Source: Giardia intestinalis
Taxonomy: Eukaryota
Direction: 5' to 3' (one strand)
DNA: 64,000 nt
Assembly (NCBI GenBank): GCA_000002435.2
Contig: CM018792.1
In this document: in pieces, positions 29,448 to 31,829 of the stretch
Position numbering within the stretch: the stretch's first letter is position 1
Layout: each line of letters opens with the position of its first letter
Program-made: the position numbers and the translations under genes
The notes under the pieces: generated by a model
What the model was told of the DNA's origin: nothing
Database searches by the model: none
Seen by the model: the letters and a program-made list of their open reading frames with translations, nothing else

Positions 29448-31829
29448 ATGTTGGTAGGATTTCTCCTAGTTTGTGCAACCGTGCTGGCAAAGGACACCGG
29501 GAAGACCGCATGCGAGCTTTCCAACACAGAATGCGCCCAAAACCTGAAGGACGCGGGCTGCAAGACGTGCGTCGGGACGGAGCCTGACCAGACGTGCACT
29601 GAGTGTACAGATCCCTCCCACAATGTACAGATTGACAAGAAGAGTTGCGACGCCAACTGCCCGGAGCACGCCGCGGCCAACTCGAAAGTGTGCGGGTGCG
29701 TCGCTGGGTACCAGCCGACTCCCGGGCAGAACCAGTGCGAGCTTTCCAACACAGAATGCGCCCAAAACCTGAAGGACGCGGGCTGCAAGACGTGCGTCGG
29801 GACGGAGCCTGACCAGACGTGCACTGAGTGTACAGATCCCTCCCACAATGTACAGATTGACAAGAAGAGTTGCGACGCCAACTGCCCGGAGCACGCCGCG
29901 GCCAACTCGAAAGTGTGCGGGTGCGTCGCTGGGTACCAGCCGACTCCCGGGCAGAACCAGTGCGAGCTTTCCAACACAGAATGCGCCCAAAACCTGAAGG
30001 ACGCGGGCTGCAAGACGTGCGTCGGGACGGAGCCTGACCAGACGTGCACTGAGTGTACAGATCCCTCCCACAATGTACAGATTGACAAGAAGAGTTGCGA
30101 CGCCAACTGCCCGGAGCACGCCGCGGCCAACTCGAAAGTGTGCGGGTGCGTCGCTGGGTACCAGCCGACTCCCGGGCAGAACCAGTGCGAGCTTTCCAAC
30201 ACAGAATGCGCCCAAAACCTGAAGGACGCGGGCTGCAAGACGTGCGTCGGGACGGAGCCTGACCAGACGTGCACTGAGTGTACAGATCCCTCCCACAATG
30301 TACAGATTGACAAGAAGAGTTGCGACGCCAACTGCCCGGAGCACGCCGCGGCCAACTCGAAAGTGTGCGGGTGCGTCGCTGGGTACCAGCCGACTCCCGG
30401 GCAGAACCAGTGCGAGCTTTCCAACACAGAATGCGCCCAAAACCTGAAGGACGCGGGCTGCAAGACGTGCGTCGGGACGGAGCCTGACCAGACGTGCACT
30501 GAGTGTACAGATCCCTCCCACAATGTACAGATTGACAAGAAGAGTTGCGACGCCAACTGCCCGGAGCACGCCGCGGCCAACTCGAAAGTGTGCGGGTGCG
30601 TCGCTGGGTACCAGCCGACTCCCGGGCAGAACCAGTGCGAGCTTTCCAACACAGAATGCGCCCAAAACCTGAAGGACGCGGGCTGCAAGACGTGCGTCGG
30701 GACGGAGCCTGACCAGACGTGCACTGAGTGTACAGATCCCTCCCACAATGTACAGATTGACAAGAAGAGTTGCGACGCCAACTGCCCGGAGCACGCCGCG
30801 GCCAACTCGAAAGTGTGCGGGTGCGTCGCTGGGTACCAGCCGACTCCCGGGCAGAACCAGTGCGAGAAGGCCCCTAACACGCAGTGCAATACTCCCAACT
30901 GCAAGACCTGTGACAACCCCAAAACAGACAACGAAATCTGCACCGAATGTAATGATGGCAACTACCTCACCCCGACAAAGCAGTGCACGCAGAGCTGCGG
31001 AACAATAGGAAGCTACTATGATGGAGACAAAGCGTGCGAGCCTTGTGATCCTAGCTGTGCTGGGTGCACCACAAAGGGGCCAGCGAAGTGCACGCTGTGT
31101 CCTCCCGGGAAGAGGCTCCAGTACACCAATGATGATCCTAATCAAGGTGGATCTTGTGTAGATGAGTGCAAAGCAGAGATGGACGGGTGTGCAGAGTGTG
31201 GAGCGATAATCGGCGGTACGAAGTACTGTTCAAAATGCAAGGAAGATAAGTGGGCACCTCAGAATGGCGTGTGCGCTAATTCAGTAACAAGGAATTCATT
31301 CTGCACGAACGCAGCAGGTGGTGTATGCACTCAGTGTGCTGCAGATCATTTCCTTCAAGATGGCGGTTGCTACAAACTCGGCAGACAGCCTGGTGTCCAG
31401 ATATGTGCAGCGGCGGGTCCCAATAGCCTGTGTACTACGTGCGTAAATGGACAGAGACCAGATACCAATACTGGAGCCTGTCCTGTGTGTCCAACAGGCT
31501 GTGACACATGTACAGGGACATCCTCGCGGGCGCCCGAATGCCAATCTTGCCTTCTGGGATACTATTTCGATTCTGATAAAAAACTGTGTGTGAAATGTAC
31601 CGAGAATAGTAGTGCTATTCAAGGTGTTAGCAGCTGTGTGAGCTGCGCTCCTCCATCTAACAATCAAGGATCTGTCGTCTGCTACCTCATAAATGATAGC
31701 GGTAGCACAAACAAGAGTAGCGGGCTCTCCACGGGGGCCATAGCGGGGATCTCCGTTGCTGTGGTCGTTGTTGTGGGGGGTCTCGTAGGGTTCCTTTGCT
31801 GGTGGTTCCTCTGCCGGGGCAAGGCGTGA
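29448..31829 (+). CDS. Variant-specific surface protein (VSP), intact, 793 aa, with six tandem 75-aa repeats
   Basis: ATG at 29448 and leader MLVGFLLVCATVLA. The body is Cys-rich with many CxxC motifs and the GGCY motif (FLQDGGCYKL). The C-terminal TM segment is AIAGISVAVVVVVGGLVGFLCWWFLCRGKA-stop, followed by ACTTAGGTAGTGAATGC. The track ORF from 29004 is an upstream in-frame extension with no Met or signal sequence. Confidence 0.85.
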   Translation: MLVGFLLVCATVLAKDTGKTACELSNTECAQNLKDAGCKTCVGTEPDQTCTECTDPSHNVQIDKKSCDANCPEHAAANSKVCGCVAGYQPTPGQNQCELSNTECAQNLKDAGCKTCVGTEPDQTCTECTDPSHNVQIDKKSCDANCPEHAAANSKVCGCVAGYQPTPGQNQCELSNTECAQNLKDAGCKTCVGTEPDQTCTECTDPSHNVQIDKKSCDANCPEHAAANSKVCGCVAGYQPTPGQNQCELSNTECAQNLKDAGCKTCVGTEPDQTCTECTDPSHNVQIDKKSCDANCPEHAAANSKVCGCVAGYQPTPGQNQCELSNTECAQNLKDAGCKTCVGTEPDQTCTECTDPSHNVQIDKKSCDANCPEHAAANSKVCGCVAGYQPTPGQNQCELSNTECAQNLKDAGCKTCVGTEPDQTCTECTDPSHNVQIDKKSCDANCPEHAAANSKVCGCVAGYQPTPGQNQCEKAPNTQCNTPNCKTCDNPKTDNEICTECNDGNYLTPTKQCTQSCGTIGSYYDGDKACEPCDPSCAGCTTKGPAKCTLCPPGKRLQYTNDDPNQGGSCVDECKAEMDGCAECGAIIGGTKYCSKCKEDKWAPQNGVCANSVTRNSFCTNAAGGVCTQCAADHFLQDGGCYKLGRQPGVQICAAAGPNSLCTTCVNGQRPDTNTGACPVCPTGCDTCTGTSSRAPECQSCLLGYYFDSDKKLCVKCTENSSAIQGVSSCVSCAPPSNNQGSVVCYLINDSGSTNKSSGLSTGAIAGISVAVVVVVGGLVGFLCWWFLCRGKA
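29511..30860 (+). repeat. Six perfect head-to-tail copies of a 225-bp (75-aa) unit inside VSP1
   Basis: Unit starts are at 29511, 29736, 29961, 30186, 30411 and 30636. The unit is CELSNTECAQNLKDAGCKTCVGTEPDQTCTECTDPSHNVQIDKKSCDANCPEHAAANSKVCGCVAGYQPTPGQNQ. The translations are identical in all three + frames and in the two open - frames, which implies nucleotide identity. Confidence 0.95.

What the first reader, a model, noticed from the sequence alone, without database searches (positions are those of the whole stretch)
29511..30860. 1350-bp array of six perfectly identical 225-bp repeats inside the expressible VSP
The 75-aa unit contains 10 Cys and is identical in every copy in all reading frames. 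This implies 100 percent nucleotide identity and hence very recent expansion or ongoing homogenisation by unequal crossover.

Arrays of this kind are prone to copy-number variation and to collapse or expansion in assemblies. In VSPs, repeat number changes the antigen length and its epitopes.

The two long minus-strand ORFs across this region (29102..30961, 29466..31145) are a by-product of the stop-free repeat unit.
Basis: seen in the sequence. Interest (0 to 1): 0.55.

Follow-up and report, generated by a model that had tools for sequence, protein, structure and literature searches.

The report
Six-copy repeat in a Giardia VSP
The window holds a real, perfectly uniform six-copy 225-bp in-frame repeat inside a complete Giardia surface-antigen (VSP) gene, but the gene and its six repeats are already annotated and tabulated for the WB reference genome, so it is an ordinary example of a known kind.

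Summary
Window 29511..30866 is a period-225 tandem array of 6.03 copies with no mismatches. It encodes six identical 75-aa units with 10 Cys each.

The array lies in a complete VSP gene (29448..31829, 793 aa). The gene has a TAATGTT initiator, a signal peptide, a Pfam VSP domain, a membrane anchor ending in CRGKA, and the VSP polyadenylation motif.

The window is chromosome 4 of Giardia intestinalis WB. The gene is GL50803_0050181 (KAE8303970.1 / XP_037901999.1). A 2022 preprint already lists it with six repeats and with this exact 225-bp consensus.

Homologous 70-81-aa units occur in many other VSPs. Each array is uniform inside, but the units are only 24-63% identical to this one. That pattern is classic concerted evolution by unequal exchange or slippage.

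A paralogue, GL50803_101496, has a single diverged unit. The assemblage A2 isolate DH lacks the whole VSP cluster at this site.

The minus-strand ORFs are by-products: all three antisense frames of the unit lack stops.

I could not check copy number per allele, because no reads are available here. The finding is already known and of low interest.

The parts
29446..29452 (+). TAATGTT initiator-like motif that contains the start codon (ATG 29448..29450).
   Evidence: Read from the sequence. It is the only YAATGTT in the 29-36 kb VSP cluster. Table S1 of the preprint lists 'taatgtt' as the Inr for GL50803_0050181.
29448..31829 (+). Complete VSP coding sequence, GL50803_0050181 (793 aa plus stop).
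   Evidence: Translation. Pfam PF03302 VSP, E = 6.3e-81. The product is an exact match to KAE8303970.1 / XP_037901999.1. Table S1 gives 2382 nt, 793 aa, 102 Cys and 26 CXXC, which agrees with my own counts.
29448..29510 (+). 63-bp leader: signal peptide MLVGFLLVCATVLA (29448..29489) followed by KDTGKTA.
   Evidence: Signal-peptide sequence as given in Table S1. The AF2 model shows an N-terminal helix at residues 2-15.
29511..30866 (+). Tandem array: six identical 225-bp units (29511, 29736, 29961, 30186, 30411, 30636) plus 6 bp (TGCGAG) of a seventh. Each unit encodes a 75-aa module with 10 Cys.
   Evidence: The unit is identical to consensus #25 (GL50803_50181) of Table S2 of the preprint. 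The secondary-structure pattern repeats in all six units of the AF2 model.
30867..31736 (+). Non-repeated Cys-rich VSP ectodomain body.
   Evidence: 89% identical overall to the single-unit paralogue GL50803_101496 (P0202), and 88% over half the query to its older version P0004. Carries the Pfam VSP match. Contains GGCY.
31737..31826 (+). Transmembrane segment AIAGISVAVVVVVGGLVGFLCWWFL followed by the cytoplasmic tail CRGKA.
   Evidence: Helix at residues 765-790 in the model. TMD and tail as listed in Table S1.
31829..31845 (+). Extended VSP polyadenylation motif ACTTAGGTAGTGAATGC, which contains AGTGAAT.
   Evidence: three matches in the window against 0 expected, one after each VSP ORF. Listed for this gene in Table S6 of the preprint.
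29102..30961 (-). Antisense ORF of 619 aa. It is a by-product of the stop-free repeat, not a gene.
   Evidence: Its Pfam hits have no individual stretch that passes; the scores are summed from six identical weak matches.
29466..31145 (-). Antisense ORF of 559 aa. It is a by-product of the stop-free repeat, not a gene.
31897..33660 (+). Downstream VSP-like ORF with no in-frame ATG and no signal peptide. It is the second member of a head-to-tail array and most likely a pseudo-VSP.
   Evidence: No protein accession lies between KAE8303970 (the VSP) and KAE8303971 (Wos2). Its own poly(A) motif is at 33663.
33722..35563 (+). Third VSP-like ORF of the array, also without a start codon or signal peptide.
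   Evidence: Only about its last 510 bp have a counterpart in isolate DH.

Best explanation
This is an in-frame tandem amplification of one 75-aa, 10-cysteine ectodomain module inside a bona fide variant-specific surface protein gene. The gene is GL50803_0050181 on chromosome 4 of Giardia intestinalis WB.

Shown directly:
- There are six identical 225-bp units directly after a 63-bp leader.
- The rest of the gene is a normal VSP: Cys-rich body, GGCY, TM segment, CRGKA, initiator and poly(A) motifs.
- The unit belongs to a family of 70-81-aa modules found once or many times in other VSPs.
- Every such array is uniform inside but far diverged from the others.

Inferred:
- The array arose, and is kept uniform, by out-of-register recombination (unequal sister-chromatid or homologue exchange, or gene conversion) or by replication slippage between units.
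- These events add or remove whole 225-bp units. They therefore always preserve the reading frame and a whole folding module.
- Recurrent expansion and contraction erases differences between copies (concerted evolution).
- When this VSP is the one expressed, the product is a longer, rod-like coat protein that shows the same epitope six times. This is as described for other repeat-bearing VSPs, where the repeats are immunodominant and copy number sets protein size.
For: - Array identity and extent.
- Gene features.
- Gene identity: exact product match to KAE8303970.1 / XP_037901999.1, and six housekeeping ORFs in the window are exact matches to WB proteins on the 2,761,001-bp contig. The preprint's Tables S1 and S2 list the gene, six repeats and the identical consensus.
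- Module family: P0001 has 11.1 copies, P0002 13.1, P0003 10.2 and AS7 5.0. Each is a perfect run at the amino-acid level. All ten Cys align, but identity to this unit is only 24-63%. At the nucleotide level the related units are 65-73% identical to this one.
- The paralogue GL50803_101496 has one diverged unit and is 89% identical overall.
- Recency: the flanks differ by 2-3.4% between WB and DH. That level would give about 22-38 differences over 5 x 225 bp (P of none < 1e-9), and 0 are seen.
- Module autonomy: the AF2 model has mean pLDDT 85.8. The same short helix plus beta-hairpin pattern occurs in all six units, with confidence dips at the unit junctions. The nearest solved folds are EGF-like and furin-like Cys-rich repeats.
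- Literature: 30 repeat-bearing vsp genes in WB with units of 105-516 bp, a unique unit per gene, allelic copy-number variation in vspA6 and vspC5, and immunodominant repeats in VspA6 (PMC2996952). 36 of 136 VSPs carry repeats (preprint).
- Assembly quality: PacBio at 200x with read N50 12.7 kb, far longer than the 1.35-kb array (PMC7000408).
Against: - No reads were available, so the copy number on each of the four genome copies, and any heterogeneity in the population, is untested.
- The mechanism (unequal exchange versus slippage versus conversion) is inferred from the pattern. No event was observed.
- No intermediate alleles of this gene were found in other data sets.
- Evidence of translation is weak. 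The preprint lists only 'Not Unique' peptides for this gene.
- The array boundary shows only 6 bp of shared sequence, so the founding duplication leaves no clear homology signature.
Confidence: 0.93

Rival explanations
1. Assembly or polishing artefact. The true locus has a different number of units, a mixture of numbers, or copies that differ slightly, and the consensus step made them look like six perfect copies.
For: - VSP repeat numbers in the first WB assembly were explicitly called approximate and possibly condensed (PMC2996952).
- AS7 has 5.04 copies in its GenBank protein but is listed with 3 repeats in the 2010 table.
- Giardia is tetraploid, and structural variants in WB are enriched at VSPs (PMC7048089).
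- I could not inspect any reads.
Against: - The array is 1.35 kb. The reference was built from 200x PacBio reads with N50 12.7 kb, consensus-called with Quiver. Most reads therefore span the array and anchor in unique flanks.
- The public annotation and an independent TRF run by other authors report the same six units.
- Perfect identity within arrays is the rule in related VSPs, including the separately deposited GenBank sequence of AS7.
Confidence: 0.05
2. A single, very recent amplification burst with no continuing turnover. The copies are identical only because they are young, not because they are being homogenised.
For: - Zero differences are equally expected from a young array.
- No copy-number variants of this gene were seen.
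Against: - Every related array examined is uniform inside: 17 proteins, from several isolates including WB and P15, have perfect runs. Yet their units are 24-63% identical to this one.
- Independent recent bursts in all of them are less parsimonious than recurrent exchange.
- Allelic copy-number differences are documented for vspA6 and vspC5.
Confidence: 0.25
3. The long minus-strand ORFs (619 and 559 aa) are real antisense genes, and the repeat is conserved for their sake.
For: - All three antisense frames of the unit lack stops. That happens in only 0.7% of codon-shuffled units and in none of about 3900 225-bp windows of neighbouring VSP sequence.
- Whole-protein Pfam E-values look significant.
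Against: - The Pfam hits have no single stretch that passes. They are sums of six identical weak matches to unrelated families.
- The sense frame carries all the VSP hallmarks and ten conserved Cys.
- Antisense stops are rare in all 30 GC-rich WB repeat units (10 per kb), and 3 of the 30 units are fully open. Composition therefore explains it.
- The antisense ORFs begin with TTG in a bacterial-code listing.
Confidence: 0.01

Closest known systems
GL50803_0050181 itself, as annotated in the WB reference UU_WB_2.1 and tabulated by Rodriguez-Walker et al. 2022 (bioRxiv 10.1101/2022.03.07.483299)
   Same: The protein is identical (793 aa). The 225-bp consensus is identical. Six repeats are listed, and the Inr, signal peptide, TMD and CRGKA are the same.
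   Different: Nothing differs. This is the same object.
VSP AS7 (GL50803_137717; vsp21), a VSP with a 225-bp repeat
   Same: The architecture is the same: leader, then 75-aa units with 10 Cys, then the Cys-rich body, then TM plus CRGKA. The Inr is also TAATGTT. The body is closely related, at 58% identity overall.
   Different: The unit is only 40% identical. AS7 has 5 copies in its GenBank protein and 3 in the 2010 table. It lies on chromosome 5.
GL50803_50066 (P0001), 225-bp unit x 11
   Same: The module is homologous, at 49% amino-acid and about 70% nucleotide identity. The two units share a 33-nt exact stretch at unit positions 19-51.
   Different: It is on a different chromosome (the 4.02-Mb contig). 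It has 11 copies, and its first and last copies vary slightly.
GL50803_101496 (vsp23; P0004/P0202), a single-unit paralogue
   Same: It is 88-89% identical in the non-repeated body. The roughly 240 bp upstream of the ATG is homologous. The leader is the same.
   Different: It has one unit only, 53% identical to this one, and lacks the ELSNTECAQNLKDAG stretch. It lies on chromosome 5.
vspA6 / CRP170 (195-bp x ~23) and vspC5 (105-bp x >20), the classic repeat-bearing VSPs
   Same: The repeats start 66-99 bp after the ATG. The copies are near-identical. Copy number determines protein size and varies between alleles, and the repeats are immunodominant (PMC2996952).
   Different: The unit length and sequence are different. 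Copy-number variation and immunodominance have not been shown for this gene.

Membership tests
Giardia variant-specific surface protein (VSP, Pfam PF03302) | Match to the VSP profile above Pfam's gathering score | tested here: met
   272.7 bits against a cut-off of 31.4; E = 6.3e-81.
Giardia variant-specific surface protein (VSP, Pfam PF03302) | N-terminal signal peptide | tested here: met
   MLVGFLLVCATVLA. No predictor was run here. The preprint's Table S1 scores SP = Y with this sequence.
Giardia variant-specific surface protein (VSP, Pfam PF03302) | Cys-rich ectodomain with many CXXC motifs and a GGCY motif | tested here: met
   102 Cys (12.9%) and 26 CXXC. GGCY occurs in ...FLQDGGCYKLG....
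Giardia variant-specific surface protein (VSP, Pfam PF03302) | C-terminal transmembrane segment followed by exactly CRGKA | tested here: met
   ...GLVGFLCWWFLCRGKA*. Helix at residues 765-790 in the model.
Giardia variant-specific surface protein (VSP, Pfam PF03302) | Initiator motif YAATGTT at the start codon and the extended poly(A) motif after the stop | tested here: met
   TAATGTT at 29446..29452. ACTTAGGTAGTGAATGC at 31829.
Giardia variant-specific surface protein (VSP, Pfam PF03302) | Surface expression, one VSP per cell, with switching | not testable with these tools
   Only 'Not Unique' peptides are reported for this gene in the preprint's Table S13.
Tandem-repeat-bearing VSPs (vspA6, vspC5, CRP136, CRP65, AS7 and others) | In-frame tandem units of about 105-516 bp that begin shortly after the leader | tested here: met
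   The 225-bp unit (75 codons) starts 63 bp after the ATG. Range taken from PMC2996952.
Tandem-repeat-bearing VSPs (vspA6, vspC5, CRP136, CRP65, AS7 and others) | Copies (near-)identical within a gene, with a unit sequence unique to that gene | tested here: met
   0 mismatches within the array. The best other unit in the protein collection is 63% identical. The related WB unit consensuses that were compared are at most 73% identical at the nucleotide level.
Tandem-repeat-bearing VSPs (vspA6, vspC5, CRP136, CRP65, AS7 and others) | Copy number polymorphic between alleles or isolates | not testable with these tools
   No reads and no second assembly of this locus could be fetched.
EGF-like / furin-like cysteine-rich repeat folds | Structural superposition on solved EGF or furin-like repeats | tested here: inconclusive
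   Foldseek best hit is NELL2 EGF1-6 at E = 4e-4. R-spondin Fu1-Fu2 and ErbB give probabilities of 0.9 but E > 0.01 and low TM-scores, because the query is a long rod. There is no sequence match to any PDB chain. This is a resemblance only.

The most novel reading that the evidence does not exclude
The repeat modules of VSP genes may form a compositionally distinct class. All 30 catalogued WB units have GC3 of 0.67-0.95, against about 0.5 in the non-repeated part of this gene, and they have few or no antisense stop codons. This signature could be the footprint of GC-biased gene conversion that accompanies frequent exchange between modules. A 33-nt exact patch shared with another gene's unit would be one conversion tract. 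Alternatively, it could reflect selection on the antisense transcripts implicated in VSP silencing.
Probability: 0.07. Interest if true: 0.4.

Novelty: already known. Interest (0 to 1): 0.1.

Why it matters
For this locus there is little new. The gene, its six repeats and the general behaviour of VSP repeats are all published.

It has practical value as a clean marker. A 1.35-kb perfect array in a single-copy context could be used to measure repeat turnover between WB subclones, between nuclei, or between AI isolates.

It also gives three warnings. Short-read assemblies will collapse the array. Short reads and short peptides that lie within a single unit cannot be assigned to a particular copy. 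Profile searches return inflated whole-protein E-values on it.

Tried and rejected
- **Wrong isolate at first.** The first homologue search listed nothing above 88% identity, so I took the window for a non-WB isolate. This was wrong. The 90% cluster is represented by the 479-aa paralogue, and an exact look-up found the 793-aa protein itself in WB.
- **Contig look-ups.** Exact-product look-ups for the VSP, its paralogues (P0004, P0002, P0202) and the ankyrin neighbour all returned nothing. I therefore obtained no second assembly of the locus and no DNA of the paralogous arrays by that route.
- **Unit-level protein search.** It gave only 4 hits, at 54-65% identity. No protein carries the exact unit.
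- **Metagenome scan.** A scan for the unit-to-unit junction found nothing.
- **GC3 and homogenisation.** I tested whether the high GC3 of the unit (0.79 against 0.52 for the rest of the gene) is a mark of array homogenisation. It is weakened, because the single-copy unit of GL50803_101010 also has GC3 0.79.
- **Pfam hits.** KARI_N on the sense protein, and zf-RING_13, Rad21_Rec8 and others on the antisense ORFs, were rejected. No single stretch passes; the scores are six weak matches added together.
- **2010 catalogue.** No entry in the vsp table fits this gene's length, Cys and CXXC counts for any copy number from 1 to 8.
- **Papers not held.** The two primary papers on repeat copy number (PMC186261, PMC308127) are not held. 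They are cited only through PMC2996952.
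Full report
**Observation.** Tandem Repeats Finder reports one array at 29511..30866: period 225, 6.0 copies, 100% matches, no indels, score 2712. Apart from a 36-bp microrepeat, it is the only tandem array in the 64-kb window. A direct comparison gives 0 mismatches for each of the six blocks from 29511 to 30860. The adjacent 225-bp blocks differ from the unit at 153-178 positions. Perfect periodicity continues for 6 more bases (TGCGAG), to 30866. The unit encodes 75 aa with 10 Cys.

**Gene model.** The in-frame ATG at 29448 lies within TAATGTT (29446..29452). 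The product starts with MLVGFLLVCATVLA, followed by KDTGKTA, then six identical 75-aa units and a 322-aa non-repeated part. That part contains GGCY and ends ...GLVGFLCWWFLCRGKA, with the stop at 31827..31829. ACTTAGGTAGTGAATGC starts at the last base of the stop codon. Pfam VSP (PF03302) matches at 6.3e-81. The protein has 102 Cys and 26 CXXC.

**Provenance and prior knowledge.**
- Six housekeeping ORFs in the window are exact matches to proteins of Giardia intestinalis WB clone C6 on a 2,761,001-bp contig, while the DH and P15 versions differ.
- The 793-aa product is exactly KAE8303970.1 / XP_037901999.1, annotated 'VSP'.
- It did not appear in my first homologue search because its 90% cluster is represented by a 479-aa paralogue.
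- The supplement of Rodriguez-Walker et al. 2022 (bioRxiv 10.1101/2022.03.07.483299) lists it as GL50803_0050181 on NC_051859.1 (chromosome 4). The entry gives 2382 nt, 793 aa, Inr taatgtt, 102 Cys and 26 CXXC.
- Their repeat table (Tandem Repeats Finder) shows 6 copies, and their consensus #25 is letter-for-letter the window unit.
- The same preprint states that 36 of 136 WB VSPs carry tandem repeats.
- Adam et al. 2010 described 30 such genes, with units of 105-516 bp and a unit unique to each gene. They warned that copy numbers were approximate. They cited allelic copy-number variation in vspA6 and vspC5 and immunodominant repeats in VspA6 (PMC2996952).

The finding is therefore already known.

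**Why the gene is probably new to the 2020 assembly.**
- Its gene ID (50xxx series) and its RefSeq accession (XP_0379...) have the newer numbering, while its neighbours keep XP_0017... accessions.
- The old accessions on the two sides of the cluster are not consecutive (XP_001706672 against XP_001706046), which suggests a break in the old assembly here.
- No entry in the 2010 vsp table fits this gene's length, Cys and CXXC counts for any copy number from 1 to 8.
- The new reference came from 200x PacBio reads with N50 12.7 kb, assembled with HGAP and Quiver (PMC7000408). A 1.35-kb array is therefore spanned by most reads.

**Relatives of the unit.**
- Seventeen proteins among those fetched contain perfect internal runs. 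Twelve of these, including this gene, have units of 70-81 aa: P0001 x11.1, P0002 x13.1, P0003 x10.2, AS7 x5.0, O97448 (P0010) x4.2, P0113 x4.0, and two-copy cases in P15 and other isolates.
- Aligned in register, nearly all ten Cys positions are conserved across the units. Identity of the tandem units to this one is only 24-52%.
- The best matches anywhere are single units at 60-63% identity (P0197, P0200).
- At the nucleotide level the related WB units are 65-73% identical to this one.
- The paralogue GL50803_101496 on chromosome 5 has one shorter unit (53% identical). It is 89% identical overall and has a homologous segment of about 240 bp upstream of the ATG.

Uniformity within arrays combined with divergence between them is the pattern of concerted evolution.

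**Recency.** The syntenic contig of isolate DH (assemblage A2) is 96.6-98% identical to the window in the conserved flanks. At 2-3.4% divergence, five extra 225-bp copies would carry about 22-38 differences. None is present. The array was therefore made uniform long after the A1/A2 split.

**Structure.**
- An AlphaFold2 model built on a 66-sequence alignment has mean pLDDT 85.8 and pTM 0.44.
- All six units show the same pattern: a short helix, a beta-hairpin, then further short strands.
- Confidence dips at each unit junction.
- This fits a rod of autonomous disulfide-rich modules, so adding or removing whole units should be tolerated.
- Foldseek finds only weak resemblance to EGF-like and furin-like repeats (NELL2, R-spondin, ErbB).
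- No PDB chain matches by sequence.

**Minus-strand ORFs.**
- The unit contains no TTA, CTA or TCA, so all three antisense frames are open. The third frame lacks a start codon inside the array, so the ORF lister shows only two long ORFs.
- This is unusual: it occurs in 0.7% of codon-shuffled units and in none of about 3900 windows of neighbouring VSP sequence.
- It is nevertheless explained by composition. All 30 WB repeat consensuses are GC-rich (GC3 0.67-0.95) with about 10 antisense stop triplets per kb, and 3 of the 30 are fully open.
- The Pfam hits to the antisense ORFs, and KARI_N on the sense protein, have no single stretch that passes. They are sums of six identical weak matches.

**Context.**
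- The gene heads a head-to-tail array. Two further VSP ORFs (31897..33660 and 33722..35563) have no in-frame ATG or signal peptide, but each is followed by the poly(A) motif.
- No protein accession lies between this VSP and Wos2. That matches the pseudo-VSP arrays described for the reference and the 'first in linear array' pattern of Adam et al..
- Window 28962..35053 has no collinear counterpart in DH, only short VSP-to-VSP similarity. DH instead has an intact 671-aa NEK kinase, an ankyrin/zinc-finger protein and a 158-aa VSP remnant. WB keeps only a truncated kinase ORF.

**What remains open.** I could not test the copy number on each of the four genome copies, variation between subclones or AI isolates, or whether the gene is ever the expressed VSP. 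Only non-unique peptides are reported for it. No reads and no second assembly of the locus could be obtained with these tools.

**Verdict.** It is an already catalogued example of a well-known class, and its interest is low.

Noticed in passing
window 29511..29735, compared with 30861..31826: The repeat unit has GC3 of 0.79 and TGC:TGT of 9:1. The non-repeated part of the same gene has GC3 of 0.52 and TGC:TGT of 22:19. All 30 catalogued WB VSP repeat units are similarly GC3-rich (0.67-0.95, mean 0.83). The single-copy unit of GL50803_101010 also has GC3 0.79, so the bias belongs to the module type rather than to being tandem.
   Followed up: partly
window 29529..29561 (unit positions 19-51, and the same positions in every copy): A 33-nt exact stretch, GAATGCGCCCAAAACCTGAAGGACGCGGGCTGC, is shared with the repeat unit of a different VSP (GL50803_50066). 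The two units are only about 70% identical overall. It may be a conversion tract between paralogous modules.
   Followed up: partly
window 28962..35053, compared with L007 6020..8030 (isolate DH, AHGT01000014.1): The whole 6.1-kb VSP cluster has no collinear counterpart at the syntenic site of assemblage A2 isolate DH. DH instead has an intact 671-aa NEK kinase, a 241-aa ankyrin/zinc-finger protein and a 158-aa VSP 3' remnant. The adjacent 3 kb (window 25944..28962) is only 82% identical between the isolates, against 97-98% further out.
   Followed up: partly
window 28263..28811 (+): This is a truncated protein-kinase ORF. It matches Pkinase profile positions 45-196 of 263, has no ankyrin part, and has no protein accession in the reference. 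It is probably a NEK pseudogene cut off by the VSP cluster.
   Followed up: partly
window 31897..33660 and 33722..35563 (+): Two VSP-like ORFs lie in a head-to-tail array. They lack a start codon, a signal peptide and an Inr, yet each keeps the extended poly(A) motif (33663, 35566). The spacers are rich in GTGATAGT-like motifs.
   Followed up: partly
window 29448..31826 (+) and the antisense ORFs 29102..30961 and 29466..31145 (-): Whole-protein Pfam E-values are inflated by the six identical copies. Examples are KARI_N at 2e-8 on the VSP, and zf-RING_13 at 1e-13 and DUF1467 at 3e-8 on the antisense ORFs, all with no individually significant stretch. This is a trap for automated annotation.
   Followed up: yes
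window 29004..29447 (+): The VSP frame stays open for 444 nt upstream of the true ATG. The old WB annotation of the paralogue GL50803_101496 included a homologous 81-aa extension (P0004). The duplication that made the two paralogues therefore carried about 240 bp of 5' flank.
   Followed up: no
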